A DNA stretch of 59,331 bases, filler included, from Basidioascus undulatus (Eukaryota): NCBI GenBank assembly GCA_000826855.1. It is 6 parts of 6 records of this genome, joined end to end, with 100 filler letters (N's around TTAATTAATTAA, not from the genome) between each part and the next. Parts side by side here need not be neighbours in the genome. Positions count along the whole stretch, not along the records: positions 19,912 to 29,741 come from JTLS01001207.1; 5 more parts are not named here. One strand, written 5' to 3'. Each line of letters starts with the position of its first letter. The stretch's first letter is position 1. This document shows positions 9,876 through 59,331 of this stretch, one piece after another. The position numbers and the translations under genes are program-made. Under the pieces are notes generated by a model. It did not search any database, was not told the DNA's origin, and worked only from the letters and a program-made list of their open reading frames with translations.

Positions 9876-9975
9876 NNNNNNNNNNNNNNNNNNNNNNNNN
9901 NNNNNNNNNNNNNNNNNNNTTAATTAATTAANNNNNNNNNNNNNNNNNNNNNNNNNNNNNNNNNNNNNNNNNNNN
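9876..9975. other. artificial contig linker (N44-TTAATTAATTAA-N44)
   Basis: Identical 100-bp spacer with stops in all six frames. Confidence 0.99.
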
Positions 9976-19811: not shown

Positions 19812-19911
19812 NNNNNNNNNNNNNNNNNNNNNNNNNNNNNNNNNNNNNNNNNNNNTTAATTAATTAANNNNNNNNNNNNNNNNNNNNNNNNNNNNNNNNN
19901 NNNNNNNNNNN
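19812..19911. other. artificial contig linker
   Basis: N44-TTAATTAATTAA-N44. Confidence 0.99.
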
Positions 19912-24747: not shown

Positions 24748-26688
24748 TTATGCCAGCGGGACCTGCTTGTACGAGCGGCGGAACATGCCGTCGATGTGCT
24801 CGAGGTAGTAGGCGCCCGGCCAGACGTTCTTGGGCTCGCCCTTCGGAGAGTAGTCCTTCGAGTTGTGGTTCTCCTCGCGCAGCTGAACGCCGGGTTGAGA
24901 GCTTGTCAGGAAAGAGGTGCGATAAGGAGAATGGAAGGGAACGCAAGCCGTACCTTCAGAGCGGTGACGTAGTGGTCGACCGGGACGACGTCCATCGACG
25001 CCAGGCGCTCCTTCAGGTTGAGGTTCTTTGCGAGGCCGTCGACCGGGCCAACAACGCGGAGGCTGAAGAAGGAGGCGGCGAAGCCTGAGCCGTAGGAGAA
25101 GCAGCCGAGCTTCTTGCCTTGCTGTTGGCCGAAAGCGTCACACGCTGGTCAGCAGCGACCTCCAGTCAGCTTTGTCGGTGATGACGCACCAAGTCCGCAG
25201 AGGAAACGTTGGAGAGGAGGGAAGCGAGACCGCCGTAGAGGGACGCGGTGTACATGTTACCGATGCGCTTGACGACGTCGGCGGTGGGCTCGACCTGGCG
25301 CATGTAGCCCTCCTTCGCGAGCGCGACGAAGGTCTTCTCGATCGCCTTGTCGGTGTAGGTCTTGGTGCGGGGGAGGGAGGCGATGGACTGGTCGACGGAC
25401 GCGAAGCGCTCGGCGGAGGGGTTGGAGAGGAAGTCGTTGTAGAGCTATCGGGAGAGAACACGCCGACCTGACGTCAGTTTCATTTTGACCTGAAACGCGA
25501 GGGGTGGGAGAAGATCTAGATGACGCACGAGACGAGCGTGGCCCTTCTGGACGAGCTTGCCGTAGGGAGAGTGGAAGAGGATGTAGTCGAAAGAGTCGGA
25601 GGTCGTCGCCGCCTTCGGGTCAGCGTGGTGGCCGTTCGAAGTGCCGTTCACCGCGCGCTTCGCGACCTTCTCGCGGTAGCGGTCGTACACCGCGTCAACC
25701 GCGCCGAGGTAGCACTTGATCGTCAGAGGGCCGTCGACCTCGGGACTGCAAAAGGACCGCGTTCAATTCGTGCACCGCAAGGAGCCTGAACAGGAAGACG
25801 TACTACTCGGAAGACAGGTCAGGCTTGAAGAAGTCGTAAGCGTTCTCCATGTGAGTGCCACGGATCGCTGTGCAATGCAATTGTGACAAATGTCAGTCTA
25901 CTGCACCTTTGGAAAGGCTGCAATACGCCCTGCCATGGCGAAGCAACCCAGACCACCTGTTTTCCCAAGAAGATCAAGCGACTCACGGTCAATGACAATC
26001 GGCGCGTCAGGGCCGATCCACAGAGCAATAGCACCAGCACCACCGACGGGGCGCGCACCACCCTCAGCGTAGATGGCGATGTCGGCGGCGACGACGATCG
26101 CGTCCCGGCCGTCCCAGGAGGAAGACTCGATCCAGTTCACGGCGTTGAAAAGCGCGGCAGTGCCACCGTAGCAGGCGTTCTTGGAGTCGATGCCCTCGAT
26201 GTCGTGGTTGCCCGAGGCCGCAAAGAGGTCCATCAGCGTCGTCTTGACGGACTTGGACTTGTCGATGATCGTCTCGGTTCCGACGTCAAGACGGCCGATC
26301 GACTTGGGGTCGATGTTGTACTTCTCGAGCAGGGAGGAGGTCACTGTGATGGCAAACGATAATGGGAGCGCGTAAGCTACCCGGGGGCTTTTCCTTCAAC
26401 AGCCAAGCAAAAGACGCACCAGAGAGAGCGAAGGAGTTGATGTCTTCCCGGTCGTCGGTGAAGGCCATGAACTTCTGGCCGAAGCCGATGGTGTACTTGC
26501 CAGTGGGCGCGCCATCAAAGACCTCGAGGTCCTCTTGGGAGATGCACTGTGGTCACCGCCAAAATCTCCCATCTCAGCACACCTCGCCATCTCGCGGTCT
26601 CGAGAAAGGAAGACGGTCGTACGCGCTTGGGGACGTGAATCTGGATACCCTTGATACCGACGTTCTGGGGGCGGGAGGAGGAGGCCAT
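24748..26688 (-). CDS. ERG13: hydroxymethylglutaryl-CoA synthase
   Basis: [38 protein letters not shown], catalytic [34 protein letters not shown] and GNMYTASLY. Confidence 0.97.
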
Positions 26689-27854
26689 GGCGGATAGCGC
26701 GGAGGGTGGATTAAACGGAAAACAAGGGGAGAAGATGGAAGGGGATAGTGGTGGTATGAGGGCGAGGAAGGATCGAAAAGCGAAGGGAGAGATTGCGGTT
26801 GGGCGGCCCAGGATGAGGCGACTTCTCGCTTCCCCGCCTCGAAGGCACGCGCCGCCGCAGGGGCGCGTGCGTGGCCGTGCCATTTGCCGCGCCCCAGCAG
26901 GATCAGCTCATTTCTCCCAATTGTTGCCTTTCTTCTCTCTTGGGTTTCTTGCTCGTTTACTGCTGGGCATCGCCTCAGTGGACATCTTCGTCTGCTCTAT
27001 CACACCCTCCATACAGGCTGGCTGCGCCTCACCTGCAGACTGCAGGACAAAGTTAAAGAACTGAGACACTTGACGGCCTGTCAAAAGATCTACGACTTCA
27101 GTGAGTTTTCAGTGACAGCACCATGGGACGAATCGAGGAGGAATGTAGGAATGGAATGAGATGAGGGGTGCTTGTAAGCGTGTTCATATGCATCATGCCG
27201 TCCACGGCAACCTAGCAATCTTCGAAGTTTCCGCTGCATACAGGCGGTCCAAACGGGAGACCGAGACGGGTTGGAATCGCTCGAGAGGACTAGGAATTCA
27301 GGAGCGAGATACGGATGCGAATTGCATGTCCAGAATACTACGTCAGTACGCTCTGTCGTTCCTGGAGGAAGTGCCGAGCATACTCCCGGGACGAGCTCTC
27401 CTGACAGGTCCAGCGCATGCCGGGGGTGTGTGGAAGCCTGGCAAGCTAAGGAAGTGTATGATTGGAAAGTCGGACACAATAGTAACTTCTGGTGAGATTG
27501 AGATCCAGGGTTTGGGCTCAACTGCTCAGTTAGATATATGCGGTATTAGGGTCAAGCAGAAGATACTGTGCACCGGGCGAGCGACGTCGACGGTTTGAGA
27601 TTGGTGGTGTCACCCGAGATTGCGGGTTCCAGCAGTGTTCCAGCACCTTGCCAACACTGTCGGAGATCCAAGGAGAAAGGCTGTGGGAGTGCTGTGGCTG
27701 CTGTGAGCCTGTAAAGCGGCAACACGCGACGCCTCACCGCTTGCCTCATGGGCAAGATGAACCGCGTGGCGACAATAAAAGGAGTGCAGTCTCACCATTC
27801 ACTTTTTTTTTTCCCTCCACAACGAGTTCATCCAAAGCACCATCTATCTACACC

Positions 27855-28775: not shown

Positions 28776-29057
28776 AACACTTGCTCCTCTCCATCTTGCA
28801 CCTCCTCTCACCCATACGCGTTATGTTGTAAAGACCTACGGGCGTGAGGTAGTGAACGTTTGGTGTGTGTGTTCCACAGTTTGAGAGAGATTTGTCGGTT
28901 GGAAGACTTGACTTCAAAGGAACAAATGATCACAAATTACGGGTTTCTGCATTTTCAGTCTCCGTTGTAGTGAGTAGATTCAATATTGCTTGCGAGATTA
29001 ACTCAAGCCGTGGCGAAACTTGGAATATGTTTGAAAACTAGCAGTCATCACTTTCAG

Positions 29058-29070
29058 TATTGCAGTGGTA
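29058..29070 (+). promoter_or_regulatory. putative external Pol III A-box in the leader of the permuted tRNA
   Basis: TATTGCAGTGGTA resembles the A-box TRGYnnARTGG and lies about 35 nt upstream of the B-box GGTTCGATCC (29092-29101). Confidence 0.5.
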
Positions 29071-29077
29071 CTTCGTA

Positions 29078-29150
29078 ATCAGGGGGTTGCAGGTTCGATC
29101 CCTGCGTCGGTCACGGCCGGCTGGCTCAATGGTAGAGTATCTGACTACGA
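29078..29150 (+). tRNA. circularly permuted tRNA-Arg(ACG): 3' half 29078-29113, 1-nt linker, 5' half 29115-29150
   Basis: The reassembled halves form a full 72-nt cloverleaf: acceptor GGCCGGC/GTCGGTC plus A73, D-arm GCTC-AATGGTA-GAGT, anticodon stem TCTGA/TCAGG with loop CT-ACG-A|A, variable GGGTT, T-arm GCAGG-TTCGATC-CCTGC. Confidence 0.9.
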
Positions 29151-29155
29151 TTTTT
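29151..29155 (+). terminator. RNA polymerase III oligo-T terminator
   Basis: TTTTT immediately follows position 37 of the downstream-located 5' half. Confidence 0.7.
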
Positions 29156-29741: not shown

Positions 29742-29841
29742 NNNNNNNNNNNNNNNNNNNNNNNNNNNNNNNNNNNNNNNNNNNNTTAATTAATTAANNN
29801 NNNNNNNNNNNNNNNNNNNNNNNNNNNNNNNNNNNNNNNNN
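29742..29841. other. artificial contig linker
   Basis: N44-TTAATTAATTAA-N44. Confidence 0.99.
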
Positions 29842-39606: not shown

Positions 39607-39706
39607 NNNNNNNNNNNNNNNNNNNNNNNNNNNNNNNNNNNNNNNNNNNNTTAATTAATTAANNNNNNNNNNNNNNNNNNNNNNNNNNNNNNNNNNNNNN
39701 NNNNNN
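39607..39706. other. artificial contig linker
   Basis: N44-TTAATTAATTAA-N44. Confidence 0.99.
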
Positions 39707-46779: not shown

Positions 46780-46875
46780 GGGCCTGACCGGGAATTGAAC
46801 CCGGGACCTCTCCCATGCAAGTGCTCAGCACCGGTGTGACCCGAAGGGAAAATCATACGACTAGACCATCAGGCC
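46780..46875 (-). tRNA. tRNA-Pro(CGG) with 24-nt intron (46816-46839)
   Basis: Acceptor GGCCTGA/TCAGGCC, anticodon stem TTCCC/GGGAG with loop TT-CGG-G|T, T-arm CCGGG-TTCAATT-CCCGG, followed by TTTTT. The D-loop has C in place of G18. Confidence 0.9.
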
Positions 46876-49469: not shown

Positions 49470-49569
49470 NNNNNNNNNNNNNNNNNNNNNNNNNNNNNNN
49501 NNNNNNNNNNNNNTTAATTAATTAANNNNNNNNNNNNNNNNNNNNNNNNNNNNNNNNNNNNNNNNNNNN
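49470..49569. other. artificial contig linker
   Basis: N44-TTAATTAATTAA-N44. Confidence 0.99.
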
Positions 49570-55136: not shown

Positions 55137-58100
55137 TTACGCGAAGCCAAAGCCCGTTCCACCCTCGTTGATGGCAATGAGAAGCTGCCGCCGGAGCATC
55201 TCGTAGCTGGAGTATTGCCCGAGGTCAAGCTGCCGATGACCCCAAAGTCAGGCGAGCCCCTAGACAAAACAATTTTGGTGGACGTACCTGATTGAAGCAA
55301 GTGTGAGCTTGCGGCAGCTTGTCCTCGTCGTACGAGCGATGGATGTTGAAGCGCTGGACGCCTTGAGATCCCTGCAGAGCGCCGAAGCCCTCCAGCGGTA
55401 CGCTGTCGAGAGAACAGTCAGTGAGAAGCCCCAAGCAGGAACGAGCGAGGATTACGTACCGACTCGAGCCCGTGACGAACTGGAGGAAGGACGCCCGCTC
55501 GGTCTGGTCGAACGACCGCAAAGCACGCCTGCAGGAAAAGGAAATGAGCTTTCGGATCACCGGCGAACAGTCGATTGCACATACCAGAACCATTGGATGA
55601 CAGCGTCCGACGAGTTGAAGCCAACGTAGTCGGTGTGCCTGAGAAGGACAATGCACATGAGCCCCGTGCCAAAGAGCCTGCGAGGACCATACCAACTTAC
55701 GCCCGCCAAGAGTCAACGTCGATCGTAGGCAAGCCGGAGATGAGCAGCTCCAATCTGTTTCCCGATACACGTCAGCAATGAACGGTTCACTTAATGAGAG
55801 ACAAATGAGGCGTACTCATTCTCGCTGAAGATCTTGACGAGCTCCGCCGGGATGATGTCGTGGAAGCCCTCGAGAAAACTCGTGGTCTGCTGCTCGATCG
55901 CCTTCGTGAGACGGTGCTCGGTGACGAGCCTGACATATTCGCGCTTGTTCGACTCGGTGACCGGGGTCTGGCTACCGTCCGTCTTGAGGTCGATGACCTT
56001 GGTCTCGCCGAACTCGTCCGATTCGACGCTGAACGTGAGGTCGAGTACGTCCGTGATGTCGTTCTCGAGCATCCAGACCTGTAGCGGGACCGGTAGAGCG
56101 ATATCAGTAACGGCTCAAAAGATCGAGAGAGAATTATGTGACGCACCAGGCTCTTGTAGTATTCGAGATCGACCGACTCGAGGTCTCGGTAATCGACGCT
56201 GCGGCCGAGGATGTGCTTGTAGAACGAGCGCGTGAAGTGAGCGTCGAGCAAGCGGCCGTCGTAGATTGCCTTGCCGATGATGCGACCGACAAACTTGAAG
56301 AAGCTGAGATGCTCGGGGTTGACGTATGATGCGCGGTTGGGCTGGTACGTGAGCTTGTCGGCGTCGATCGGCTGCAGCGGGGCAAACGGTGAGCATCTAC
56401 CGGACAAGACGAGCGGAGAAGAATGTACCTGGAAGAGAGCGTAGTTCGGGTTAAACATCCGCTGGGCGAGGACCTGGTACCATTCGCGAGCAACACCGCC
56501 GGCGTCGACGCCCTCCTCGTCATAGAACCGCACACTGAGCTTGCCGAACTTGACCTCGTCGCCTGATCGCCGTTGGAAGTAGCGGAACGAGTCTTCGAAT
56601 ACGTACTGCCGGCGGACGTTGACGTGGAGCGTGCCGTAGTGCTCGCGGGGCGACTTGCGCTGGCGCAGGCGCTGCGTGAAGAAGCTACGCTTGTTGTCGA
56701 ACTCGAGCATGCGCGGGTTCTGGACGAGCAGCGAGAACGACCCGCTCATGAGCGACGGGTTGTTGCGAACCATGACGTTCAAGATCTTGCGGTGGCGCTC
56801 GGTGAAGTCAATGAAGACGTCCCCGATCGCGTCCGACGCCGACGTCGGCGACCGCGGCGACCCAACAGAGCGAAGAGCGCGAGCAGCAGCGGTCTGCGGG
56901 CTGACGTACTTGCAGACGACCATGAGCGACTCGATAAGCGGGAGGAGCACGGTGGCGACGTGGATCATGTCGCCCTTGTCCTCGATCACCGCCAAAGCGT
57001 CGCCGAGACGGCGCCACAGGGGGGCGAACTGCGCAATTGCATCGCTAGTCAGCATCAGCGCTCGAAAGCTTAAATAATCAGCGCTCGAAAGCGTAAATAT
57101 GGGCGGACAAACCTGGAAGCTCTCGTAGATGGCGTTCACCTTCGCCTCGTCCGTCACGCTCTCCTGCACGCCTACAGCGAGCGCTTGCGCGGGCGCATCC
57201 GGCCCGACGGCCGGCGCAGGAGCGAGGGCAGCCGCGGCCTGAGCGAGCGTGTTCGGCGCACCGGGCGCATCAGCACCACCTGGCGCTGCCGCCCCCTCGG
57301 CACCCGACGTGCTCGCCTCGGCAGCGGGAGTCGACTTCGGCTTGCTGTACATGTAGTCGATCGTCTTGAGGACGCGTAGCAAGCGAGCCTGCAGCGACGA
57401 CGCAGGGAGTAACTTGGCGAGCGTGGAGCCACGAACATCGCTGCCGCTCGACGCCGCTTCGAGCGCGGTCGTCAGCTCCTCGACCTCGACGAGAAGCGCC
57501 GAGCCGAACTCTTGTGCGCGTTGGCGCAGCTCGCCAGCGATGGCGTCGCGCGCGTCCGGGATGTACGACAGGTGCTGGATGAGGCTGAGGGTCTGCTGGA
57601 ACGTTTTGCTCGAGCACTCGCCGACGGTGAGGATGTTGACAACGAGCTTGAGGATCGGGTGCGGCACTTGCGGCGGGACGGTAAGGGCGGACGGGTCCTC
57701 CTGCGGGGCCTCGCCTCCGGGACCAGGTGCGGGAGACGGAGCGCCCGCCTCGGGCTCAGTGGGAGCCAACTGAGTCTCAGCGCTCGCGTCGGGCGCCTCG
57801 GGATGCGCAGCAGTGCCCGCGGATGGGGCGTCGGACTTGGGAGCCTCGGCCTTCTTCAGCGTCCCGAGCGGACGCGTGATGTTCGCAAGTAGCGTTGTAA
57901 ACGAGTCCATCATCGCCTGCGTCTTGAAGAGCGTCGGGCGGTCGAGGAGGCTGAGCAGGATGACGATCGGGAACCGGACGGGCGCCGGCTGTTTCTCCTT
58001 GCCCTTGCCCTTCTTGGACGGCCGCGGCTTGACGCTCGCTGACAAGTCGTGCTCGGTCAAGAAGAACAGAGAGGCTTGCTCGTTCGCGGCGACGAGGGCG

Positions 58101-59331
58101 GCGAGCGCTTCGAAGCAGCTTTGCGCGATAATGTTCGGCAGCGTCTCCGGAGGAAGCTGGGCCAGAACGGGGCCGGCGGGGCTGTCGAACGTCGCCTTGC
58201 GCTTCGGTGTCGCCTTTGGCGTGGCAAACGCCGTCGGCGCCGGTATAGGCTTCGGGGCACCCGGTCGCAGCGACATCTGCGAGAAGCTTCGGTCGACCGC
58301 GGGAAGATCGCCAGTACCCTCCTGGAGGATGTTGAGCAGCAAGCTTAGGAGCTCTACGCGGGTCTTCGAGTTCTCCGCGAGCTGCGAATATCGTTCAGGT
58401 GAGGATGGATGGTTTGCCGCAACGAGAGCGAAGCGAAAGTGACGTACGTTGATGAGGATCTTGTTGATGTGACTCTTGCGGAAGAGTTGAGGGTGGAAGA
58501 GAAGCCGAACCAGAGTCGAGAGGCCGCCTTTGTCGAGGAGCTGCATGGCGTCCCGGTGAACAGCTTTTCTCGGCTGCGGCTGCCCGCCCGGGTGCCCGCC
58601 CGTCCTGCGCGCCAGCCGCGCTTCCATCGGTGCGTAGCGACGGTGACGATCGCGCAGCGCATCCACCTCGGCGATGACGGCGGGCGGAAGAGTTTGGAGC
58701 ATCTCTTCAGGCTGGTCGAGCAAGACGATTTGGCGAAGGCTCGGGTCGAGCGAAGCGAGGAAGCTCGCAGGGTCCATGTCGTCCGCTTGCGCTCCGGCCT
58801 GTCCTCCCTCCGGCTGCCGCGCGGCGGCTTCGGCCCGCTCCCGCCGCATCTGCTCAATAGCCTCCTGCTGCAGGACTTCGGCGCGGAGCTCGGCCGGAAG
58901 GGCGTCGAGGAACTCGACCGAGATGCCGGTAGGCTGCTCGGCGCTCGCTGGAGTAGGCTGGGTCGATGTCGAGACCCGAGCGCTGGCCGCGGCGGCGGAG
59001 CTAGCGGCGCGGCGCGTTTCGCGGAAGTGTTGGTTGATGACTTCTTCGCGCATGTCGTCGGGAAGCGCCTCGAGGAACCTAGACAACACGGCTCAGTTAG
59101 CGCATGCTAAGGCATAAAGCGTTACGGCGAAAGCCCTACGTTGGGTCGATGCCGGTGTCCGTGATGTCGACTTGCTCGCCGTGGACGGTGACCGTCACCC
59201 GCTCAGGTGCCGGATCCGAGCCGCTCGCCTCAGCGGGCACGCCCCCTCCGGGAGAGGTCGCCGCCGATTCGGGGGCAGCGGGCTCGCCGGCGGCTGACTC
59301 GGCTGGGGGAGCAGGAGGGAGAGCTCCAGAC
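55137..59331 (-). CDS. TOM1: HECT E3 ubiquitin ligase Tom1/HUWE1, C-terminal part
   Basis: UBM repeats ([37 protein letters not shown]) and [19 protein letters not shown] motifs [19 protein letters not shown] and catalytic [10 protein letters not shown]. Ends GTGFGFA*. Confidence 0.97.

What the first reader, a model, noticed from the sequence alone, without database searches (positions are those of the whole stretch)
29056..29155. Re-wired Pol III unit: substitute A-box in the leader and T5 terminator after the 5' half
Permutation puts the native A-box (TGGCTCAATGG, 29122-29132) downstream of the B-box (GGTTCGATCC, 29092-29101), which breaks the normal type-2 promoter order. The leader contains TATTGCAGTGGTA (29058-29070), an A-box-like motif about 35 nt before the B-box, inside a small possible hairpin (AGTAT/GTACT). 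TTTTT follows A37 immediately. Inference: the promoter and terminator fit the permuted order, which argues for function over random rearrangement and predicts a precursor of about 110-115 nt starting near 29040.
Basis: partly seen in the sequence, partly recalled or inferred. Interest (0 to 1): 0.75.

Follow-up and report, generated by a model that had tools for sequence, protein, structure and literature searches.

The report
Back-to-front fungal tRNA, replacement promoter
A basidiomycete fungus writes the genes of its main arginine tRNA with the two halves swapped, a layout so far described in algae and one archaeon, and seems to repair the scrambled internal promoter by carrying a spare promoter box in a throw-away leader.

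Summary
Confirmed and extended. 29078-29150 is a tRNA-Arg(ACG) gene permuted at 37/38 (3' half, 1-nt linker, 5' half, T5) in a basidiomycete. The junction has 42 contig matches, about 30 loci; four searches found no normal-order ACG gene. tRNA-Thr(CGT) (13 of 13) and three Arg(TCG) genes are permuted too.

An A-box core (T-N7-Y-GG) lies 17-27 nt before position 38 in 42 of 47 permuted leaders, against 16 of 141 control windows. An AT-block model trained on 45 normal tRNA genes independently places the virtual A-box at -19 (Arg) and -18 (Thr), where the motif sits. Tau95 is encoded.

Against: G10 is mostly missing, A-B spacing is 22-23 bp (yeast 31-93), the GG also sits in a covarying hairpin, and no RNA data exist. 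Corrections: the conserved hairpin is 29047-52/29064-69; the start is more likely 29047 than 29040.

Seven literature searches showed no fungal permuted tRNA or leader A-box. This scan's notes hold permuted tRNAs only from archaeal, viral and algal DNA.

The parts
29022..29032 (+). AT-rich block, inferred TFIIIB/TBP site (no consensus TATA)
   Evidence: Sits -36..-26 from the substitute T8; normal genes of this genome have their AT peak at -36..-27 from T8; population-level match. Role inferred.
29047..29047 (+). Preferred transcription start (A of a CA step); alternative A29040
   Evidence: CA at -12/-11 from the substitute T8, as in 29 of 45 normal genes (-12/-11 or -13/-12); first base of the conserved hairpin. 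Inference, no RNA data.
29047..29069 (+). Leader hairpin, 29047-29052 paired with 29064-29069
   Evidence: MFE and centroid. Across 31 Arg leaders 82% of cells pair and 17 cells change on both sides, 0 of 500 shuffles as high. RNAalifold gave no consensus on the same gappy alignment.
29058..29068 (+). Substitute A-box (matches T8 R9 Y11 A14 R15 Y16 G18 G19; G10 missing)
   Evidence: Score 12 of 14; core in 42 of 47 permuted leaders; position predicted independently by the AT block.
29073..29077 (+). Intron-like end of the leader; G29075 is the -3 base that can pair with C32 (A-I pair); these five bases can also pair with 33-37
   Evidence: G at -3 in 31 of 31 and T at -5 in 31 of 31 Arg(ACG) leaders; fold.
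29078..29113 (+). 3' half of tRNA-Arg(ACG), positions 38-73
   Evidence: near-invariant in the copies listed.
29092..29101 (+). B-box (T-loop)
29114..29114 (+). One-base linker between A73 and G1
   Evidence: Always 1 nt in 42 of 42 matches: C 20, A 11, T 11, G 0 (counted), so it is free to vary while both neighbours are fixed.
29115..29150 (+). 5' half of tRNA-Arg(ACG), positions 1-37; anticodon ACG at 29147-29149, C32 at 29145
29122..29132 (+). Native A-box (D-arm), now downstream of the B-box
   Evidence: The AT block lies far upstream, not inside the gene, so this box does not appear to set the start.
29151..29155 (+). T5 Pol III terminator and trailer
   Evidence: T4+ within 0-4 nt of A37 in 28 of 28 copies counted.

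Best explanation
This is one copy of a functional, multicopy type II (37/38) circularly permuted tRNA-Arg(ACG) gene family in a basidiomycete, and the only source found of this anticodon. Mechanism, most likely: TFIIIC tauB binds the B-box in the 3' half; tauA uses the substitute A-box in the leader (22-23 bp upstream, about one helical turn closer than usual) and places TFIIIB on the AT block; Pol III starts near 29047 and stops in the T5 run, giving about 108 nt. The leader folds a 5' hairpin over the A-box, and its last bases mimic an intron end (G-3 pairs with C32). The tRNA splicing endonuclease cuts before 38 and after 37, the ligase joins 37 to 38, RNase P and 3' trimming open the 1-nt linker, and CCA is added. 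Shown here: gene anatomy, copy family, no normal-order copy found, motif conservation, AT-block geometry, hairpin covariation, Tau95 gene. Inferred: factor binding, start site, transcription, all processing steps and their order (a circle as in algae, or acceptor end first).
For: Re-ordered halves make a tRNA. 42 junction matches, 29 distinct left flanks; far flanks unrelated (mean identity 0.26) while leaders -32..-1 are 0.52 alike. No normal-order ACG gene (33 of 37 places are permuted copies; the other 4 hold no tRNA; 0 of 26 loci) or 70 (39 of 40 places permuted; the last is Arg(TCT)). Thr(CGT) 13 of 13 permuted, with five acceptor-stem variants, 11 of 13 fully paired. A-box core in 27 of 31 Arg(ACG), 13 of 13 Thr(CGT), 2 of 3 Arg(TCG) against 16 of 141 controls. 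AT-block model from 45 normal genes gives virtual T8 at -19 (Arg; 178 of 200 bootstraps at -18..-20), -18 (Thr; 134 of 200), and -18..-20 in 197 of 200 for all 47; AT-profile r 0.95 at -19 against 0.24 at -30, the offset that normal B-box spacing would give. The model recovers the true T8 within 2 nt in 3 of 3 held-out normal families. tauA is described as a ruler that sets TFIIIB at a fixed distance from the A-box (PMC11724288, passages). Tau95 is encoded. TATA consensus in only 3 of 47 permuted leaders. Other eukaryotes' permuted Arg(ACG) genes score 7-9 for an A-box in 9 of 9 distinct leaders, and 7 of 9 have a TATA-like word. Thr leaders pair better with their own trailers than with others' (P<1e-4). 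Two soil metagenome contigs hold the permuted gene with other leaders that keep a T..YGG motif in a stem.
Against: G10, part of the yeast query TNGNNNANNNG, is present in only 8 of 31 Arg, 7 of 13 Thr and 0 of 3 Arg(TCG) best boxes, and not in this copy. Spacing of 22-23 bp is below the 31-93 bp quoted for natural genes. The GG pairs in a covarying hairpin, so RNA structure alone could hold part of the motif. In the 5 copies whose motif lies at -21 or further, the AT block did not follow the motif (score own 0.57, fixed -18 0.98, fixed -19 -0.65): inconclusive. The start-motif model alone did not pick -19 (best -9). 5 of 47 leaders lack the core. Copies within a family share ancestry, so the P values overstate independence; Arg(TCG) alone is not significant (P 0.10-0.13). 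A strict bulge-helix-bulge helix is not formed (U33 faces C or U at -4). Arg trailers show no own-copy pairing advantage (P 0.22). The assembly has 2992 contigs, so absence of a normal gene is not proven.
Confidence: 0.68

Rival explanations
1. The gene is a functional permuted tRNA, but the leader motif is kept as RNA structure (5' hairpin, intron mimic). Transcription rests on the B-box plus the AT-rich block, or on the AT block alone, as proposed for C. merolae.
For: The hairpin covaries; leaders fold better than upstream DNA (-6.8 against -1.6 kcal/mol); G10 is weak and the spacing short; the AT block did not track displaced motifs in 5 copies; in yeast the B-box alone holds TFIIIC.
Against: T8 and R9 lie mostly in the loop, yet the best boxes have T8 in 30 of 31 and A14 in 28 of 31 Arg leaders. 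Two different leader families keep the same T-N7-Y-GG spacing. The AT block sits at the normal distance from that motif and about 11 bp closer to the B-box than in normal genes. There is no TATA consensus (3 of 47) and Tau95 is present, whereas the review reports no TFC1 homologue in C. merolae. In yeast, A-box mutants lose TFIIIB recruitment.
Confidence: 0.22
2. The copies are a tRNA-derived repeat or pseudogene family (for example a reverse-transcribed circular pre-tRNA that spread), and the working ACG gene is missing from the assembly.
For: High copy number, dispersal, many copies at contig ends; a few decayed copies (L031, L047, L048, L099); fragmented assembly.
Against: tRNA parts are near-invariant while flanks are unrelated; the linker varies freely; G-3 is kept in 31 of 31; Thr acceptor stems change in pairs; no target-site duplication (own flanks share 4.7 nt against 5.2 between copies) and no A-run in 15 of 15 copies with both flanks; three isoacceptor families show the layout while Thr(AGT), Lys, Asn, Cys and Gln genes are normal.
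Confidence: 0.06
3. The order of the halves is an assembly artefact of a collapsed repeat.
For: No listed contig of run X2 spans the whole locus; copies often break contigs.
Against: The junction recurs with three different linker bases. Contigs from two other studies (X4, X5) hold the same order with other leaders, one with an 8-nt linker. Three tRNA families are affected.
Confidence: 0.01

Closest known systems
Type II (37/38) circularly permuted tRNA genes of Cyanidioschyzon merolae, prasinophytes, the Bigelowiella nucleomorph and Auxenochlorella (PMC3978253 sections 4, 6, 10 and passages; PMC12633428 passages)
   Same: 3' half before 5' half, break at 37/38, linker at the acceptor stem, T-run after the 5' half, no encoded CCA, intron-like pairing at the termini.
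   Different: Host is a fungus. About 30 dispersed copies of a major isoacceptor, against mostly single entries in the review's Table 1. Linker 1 nt (0 nt in one Arg(TCG) gene) against 5-74 nt in algae. The review holds the intragenic promoter unsuitable or dispensable and points to an upstream TATA; here a leader A-box and Tau95 are present and a TATA consensus is rare.
Permuted tRNA-Tyr(GTA) of Thermofilum pendens (through PMC3978253)
   Same: 1-nt linker; how it is removed is called an open question there.
   Different: Archaeal, type IV break (59/60), CCA encoded, upstream archaeal promoter.
Yeast RNase P RNA gene (RPR1), whose internal promoter elements lie in a 5' part that is cut off (PMC5095917 passage); SNR52 is similar (recalled)
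   Same: A promoter box carried in a transcribed, disposable leader.
   Different: Here only the A-box is in the leader; the B-box is the tRNA's own T-loop; the leader is predicted to be removed by the splicing endonuclease.
Standard Pol III type 2 promoter (PMC11724288 passages)
   Same: A-box upstream of B-box; AT-rich TFIIIB site at the same distance from the A-box as in this genome's normal tRNA genes.
   Different: A-B spacing 22-23 bp against 31-93 bp (32 commonest); G10 usually absent; a second, native A-box lies downstream of the B-box.

Membership tests
Type II circularly permuted tRNA gene | 3' half upstream of 5' half, junction at 37/38 | tested here: met
Type II circularly permuted tRNA gene | Halves in normal order form a cloverleaf with eukaryotic consensus bases, no encoded CCA | tested here: met
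   ARAGORN tRNA-Arg(ACG).
Type II circularly permuted tRNA gene | Intervening sequence closing the acceptor stem (1-74 nt in the review) | tested here: met
   1 nt in 42 of 42 matches.
Type II circularly permuted tRNA gene | T-stretch downstream of the 5' half | tested here: met
   28 of 28 copies counted.
Type II circularly permuted tRNA gene | Bulge-helix-bulge or relaxed splice motif formed by leader and trailer | tested here: inconclusive
   A-I pair possible in 31 of 31 Arg(ACG), 11 of 13 Thr, 3 of 3 Arg(TCG), the feature human TSEN needs for the 3' cut (PMC8479045 passages). The strict 4-bp central helix is not formed (3 of 4 pairs in the consensus, 2 of 4 here). Leader-trailer covariation in Thr only.
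Type II circularly permuted tRNA gene | Expressed and matured through a circular intermediate | not testable with these tools
   No RNA holder listed.
C. merolae-type promoter arrangement of permuted genes | Upstream TATA-like box with TFC1/TFC3 not found | tested here: not met
   TATA[AT][AT] in 3 of 47 permuted and 3 of 45 normal genes; Tau95 (PF09734) found over cut-off. TFC3 not searched.
Pol III type 2 promoter (leader A-box plus T-loop B-box) | A-box consensus upstream of the B-box | tested here: inconclusive
   T8, R9, A14, R15, Y16, GG kept; G10 in only 15 of 47 best boxes; core in 42 of 47.
Pol III type 2 promoter (leader A-box plus T-loop B-box) | A-B spacing within the natural range quoted for yeast (31-93 bp) | tested here: not met
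   23 bp here, 22 bp in the commonest Arg layout; range from PMC11724288. It works like a type 2 promoter but is not a standard one.
Pol III type 2 promoter (leader A-box plus T-loop B-box) | [quoted passage not shown] | tested here: met
   Virtual T8 at -18..-20 in 197 of 200 bootstraps for 47 genes; method calibrated. The per-copy test on 5 displaced motifs was inconclusive.
Pol III type 2 promoter (leader A-box plus T-loop B-box) | TFIIIC binds and is required | not testable with these tools
   Needs footprinting or mutants.
tRNA-derived SINE or retropseudogene | Target-site duplications, A-rich tail, free decay of the tRNA body | tested here: not met
   No duplication signal and no A-run in 15 copies with both flanks; body near-invariant.

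The most novel reading that the evidence does not exclude
A fungal lineage makes its main arginine tRNA and two further tRNAs from circularly permuted genes and has solved the promoter inversion in a way not found in print here. A disposable leader serves as a DNA A-box one helical turn closer to the B-box than normal, as a protective 5' RNA hairpin, and as an intron mimic for the splicing endonuclease, while the acceptor stem is opened from a loop with a 1-nt or 0-nt linker. Together with a diatom-like case in the metagenome hits, this would make permuted tRNA genes a recurring, overlooked eukaryotic layout rather than a feature of red and green algae.
Probability: 0.6. Interest if true: 0.88.

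Novelty: new variant of a known kind. Interest (0 to 1): 0.8.

Why it matters
The 2014 review states that most eukaryotes lack permuted tRNAs and ties their persistence to upstream-promoter transcription, because reversed A and B boxes should not suit TFIIIC (PMC3978253). A fungus with Tau95, about 30 permuted copies of a major tRNA and a rebuilt A-box shows a second route. It gives a natural test set of 47 promoters for minimal A-B spacing and A-box readout, and a test of whether fungal splicing endonuclease, ligase and RNase P handle a permuted precursor with a 0-1 nt linker, which can be tried in yeast. It also means that standard scans miss whole anticodon families in some fungal genomes.

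Tried and rejected
ARAGORN and Rfam on the window found no gene at the locus: they do not model permutation. RNAalifold returned no consensus pairs on the leader alignment, which has a large gap block from one aberrant copy; the named-structure count was used, with the caveat that I derived the structure from these same sequences. A model of the start motif alone did not locate the A-box. The displaced-motif test on 5 copies was inconclusive. A score threshold of 10 was too lax (20 of 45 normal upstream windows passed); 10.5 (25 of 31, 12 of 13, 1 of 3, against 11 of 93, 6 of 39, 0 of 9; normal upstream 12 of 45) and the plain core pattern are the figures to use. No RNA holder listed; run X10 laid nothing; summed contig depth gives no copy number. 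The JGI metagenome scan gave no fungal-type copy among 21 matches, and near records may be left out there. Generic permuted-pattern searches showed only three families, but one search left 22 of 122 matches unlisted and the patterns see only 37/38-type genes with linkers up to about 30 nt. An ARAGORN call of a normal Thr(CGT) in L186 was rejected: the G3:U70 pair and loop make it an intron-containing Ala(CGC). The lineage could not be narrowed below Basidiomycota from the two protein searches. Pfam named only 1 of 18 long frames of the window. The atlas gave no useful taxon for the metagenome loci. The splicing endonuclease, ligase and TFC3 genes were not searched.

Full report
What is there. 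The window is six contigs joined by N-linkers; the finding lies on G000:C232, about 590 nt from its end. The host is a basidiomycete: an HMG-CoA synthase exon at 25985-26356 (-) is 79-88% identical to its full-length fungal hits, with every named one a basidiomycete, and part of a Tom1-type HECT protein is 51-56% identical over most of the query to Agaricomycetes and Glomeromycota alike, so no close named relative is in the lists. 29078-29113 is the 3' half of a tRNA (38-73), 29114 a single C, 29115-29150 the 5' half (1-37), and 29151-29155 a T5 run. In normal order the halves give tRNA-Arg(ACG). ARAGORN and Rfam do not see it in place.

It is a family, and the only ACG gene found. The permuted junction has 42 exact matches in the genome, always with a 1-nt linker (C 20, A 11, T 11, G 0). 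Many lie at contig ends: 29 have at least 80 nt of left flank and 13 have only the right flank, so some loci are probably counted twice; about 30 loci is the safer number, plus decayed copies (L047, L048, L099). Far flanks are unrelated (mean identity 0.26; one similar pair, L016/L039). Four searches for a normal-order gene were negative: halves in normal order with a 0-60 nt gap, 0 matches; 5'-half probe with up to 3 mismatches, 33 of 37 places permuted copies and no tRNA at the other 4; 3'-half probe, 39 of 40 permuted and one Arg(TCT) gene; a generic ACG pattern, 0 of 26 loci. The assembly has 2992 contigs, so this is strong but not final. Eukaryotes read CGU and CGC with the ACG (ICG) tRNA (own knowledge), which makes function likely. 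Generic B-box-before-A-box searches revealed two more permuted families: Thr(CGT), 13 of 13 places permuted, linkers 8-13 nt, five acceptor-stem variants of which 11 of 13 copies pair fully; and three Arg(TCG) genes with linkers of 4, 20 and 0 nt. Thr(AGT), Lys(CTT), Asn, Cys and Gln genes are in normal order. There is no sign of a SINE: no target-site duplication and no A-run in the 15 copies with both flanks. Contigs from two other studies hold the permuted gene with leaders not among those I fetched from this genome, one with an 8-nt linker (X4, X5), which argues against an assembly artefact; X2 may be the source of the window and is not independent.

The substitute A-box. In a single copy the motif is not beyond chance: 16% of shuffled Arg leaders reach a score of 10.5. 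Across copies it is. The core T-N7-Y-(N)-GG, with its T 17-27 nt before position 38, is in 27 of 31 Arg(ACG), 13 of 13 Thr(CGT) and 2 of 3 Arg(TCG) leaders, against 16 of 141 upstream windows of the same loci and 9 of 45 windows upstream of normal genes; the modes are -19 for Arg and -18 for Thr. An independent test uses only DNA further upstream. Normal genes of this genome have an AT-rich block 36-27 nt before T8 and a CA step at -12/-11 (45 genes of four families with enough flank). A model of positions -50 to -22 from those genes, slid along the permuted loci, places the virtual T8 at -19 for Arg (178 of 200 bootstraps at -18 to -20), -18 for Thr (134 of 200), and -18 to -20 in 197 of 200 for all 47; the smoothed AT profile correlates at 0.95 at -19 and 0.24 at -30, the offset expected if the B-box kept its normal distance. 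The same model recovers the true T8 within 2 nt in 3 of 3 held-out normal families. This is what the tauA ruler model predicts (PMC11724288, passages). Tau95 is encoded, and a TATA consensus is rare in permuted (3 of 47) and normal (3 of 45) genes. As a natural control, 12 of 21 metagenome matches are permuted Arg(ACG) genes of other eukaryotes; their 9 distinct leaders score only 7-9 for an A-box and 7 of 9 have a TATA-like word.

What speaks against it. G10 is in only 8 of 31, 7 of 13 and 0 of 3 best boxes and not in this copy. The gap to the B-box is 23 bp here and 22 bp in the commonest layout, below the 31-93 bp quoted for natural genes and about ten short of the usual 32. The GG also pairs in a leader hairpin: 82% of cells pair and 17 change on both sides, with 0 of 500 shuffles as high, though I drew the structure from these sequences and RNAalifold gave no consensus. 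In five copies with the motif at -21 or beyond, the AT block did not clearly follow it. Copies of a family share ancestry, so the real replication is two families and a weak third (Arg(TCG) P 0.10-0.13). Five leaders lack the core (L004, L016, L019, L020, L097). I put the A-box role at roughly three in four given a functional gene; the hairpin and the box are most likely both under selection, since T8 and R9 lie mostly in the loop.

Start, end and processing (inferred). The conserved hairpin in this copy is 29047-29052 with 29064-29069, not AGTAT/GTACT. It begins at an A in a CA step 11 nt before the substitute T8, where normal genes have their CA step. I therefore prefer a start at 29047 and a precursor of 107-109 nt to 29040 and 110-115 nt; a model of the start motif alone did not confirm this. 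A T4+ run lies 0-4 nt after A37 in 28 of 28 copies with a readable trailer; only this copy has it at 0. The base three before position 38 is G in 31 of 31 Arg(ACG), 11 of 13 Thr and 3 of 3 Arg(TCG) leaders, so it can pair with C32, the pair that human TSEN needs for the 3' cut (PMC8479045, passages). A strict bulge-helix-bulge helix is not formed. Thr leaders pair better with their own trailers than with those of other copies (P<1e-4); Arg leaders do not (P 0.22). The likely route is the algal one (PMC3978253 section 6): cut before 38 and after 37, ligate, open the linker, add CCA. With a 1-nt linker one RNase P cut and one trimmed base suffice, and in the 0-nt Arg(TCG) gene a single cut would give both ends; the acceptor end could also be opened first, without a circle. 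No RNA run was available.

Comparison with what is known. It meets the testable features of type II permuted tRNA genes, with the splice motif only partly met. The 2014 review lists 34 such genes in algae and one archaeon, calls the reversed boxes unsuitable for TFIIIC and points to an upstream TATA (PMC3978253: passages, section 4 part 1, section 6, section 10 part 1). A 2026 review still names archaea and algae (PMC13578239, passages); Auxenochlorella has been added (PMC12633428, passages); PlantRNA 2.0 names C. merolae (passages); the tRNAscan-SE 2.0 paper mentions permutation only for archaea (PMC8450103, passages); a long tRNA review has no 'permuted' in the part held (PMC10275265). A promoter in a removed leader has precedent in yeast RNase P RNA (PMC5095917, passage). 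Soma 2007, Maruyama 2010 and Chan 2011 were not read and are cited through these reviews. Seven searches (listings, 40 of 74 shown; one search was swamped by general fungal papers) showed no fungal permuted tRNA and no leader A-box. The library lacks most subscription papers, and no supplements were read, so a mention in a genome paper cannot be excluded. The scan's own notes hold nothing on this genome or sequence; the eight nearest notes are archaeal, viral, phage or algal and did not change my reading.

Verdict. It is a new variant of a known kind: permuted tRNA genes in a fungus, in many copies, with minimal linkers and a rebuilt internal promoter. Confidence in the full mechanism 0.68; interest 0.8.

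Noticed in passing
L151-L163 (G000, 13 places): tRNA-Thr(CGT) is permuted at 37/38 in 13 of 13 places, with 8-13 nt linkers, leader A-boxes in hairpins, and leader-trailer covariation.
   Followed up: yes
L096, L097, L098 (G000:C688, C735, C2924): Three permuted tRNA-Arg(TCG) genes with linkers of 4, 20 and 0 nt; in L098 position 73 directly abuts position 1. Whether normal-order TCG genes exist was not checked.
   Followed up: partly
L093:637-705 (+), metagenome contig: A permuted tRNA-Arg(ACG) lies about 460 nt from a phosphoribulokinase gene 93% identical to Skeletonema and Thalassiosira proteins, so probably a centric diatom. The listing showed no paper on diatom permuted tRNAs. Eleven more such matches (L075, 78, 80, 81, 84, 85, 87, 89, 91, 94, 95) were not placed taxonomically.
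   Followed up: partly
window 46780-46875 (-); also L187: Intron-containing tRNA-Pro(CGG) with a hairpin in the intron; ARAGORN calls the window copy Ala(CGC). The intron hairpins resemble the leader hairpins in position.
   Followed up: partly
L209 (G000:C453:7150-7550): A normal, intron-containing tRNA-Arg(TCT) whose 3' half differs from the permuted Arg(ACG) probe at only 2 of 21 bases: a possible relative of the ancestral gene. Its intron has no G at -3.
   Followed up: no
L004, L099, L031, L047, L048: Aberrant Arg(ACG) copies: L004 has a different leader end without the A-box core; L099 has lost the start of the 3' half and reads ACA; L031, L047 and L048 carry stem or loop changes.
   Followed up: partly
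Upstream of 45 normal tRNA genes (L107-L179): This fungus's tRNA genes have an AT-rich block 36-27 nt before T8 and a CA step 4-5 nt before position 1, suggesting very short 5' leaders.
   Followed up: partly
L101 (G000:C1206:1100-1800): Six intronless tRNA genes packed in 530 nt, one with anticodon TCA: probably mitochondrial DNA or a nuclear copy of it.
   Followed up: no
window 9876-9975, 19812-19911, 29742-29841, 39607-39706, 49470-49569: N-linkers: the window is six joined contigs, so genes across them are not true neighbours.
   Followed up: yes
window about 24800-26700 (-) and 55790-59092 (-): HMG-CoA synthase gene, and a Tom1/HUWE1-type HECT ubiquitin ligase; used only for placing the organism.
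   Followed up: partly
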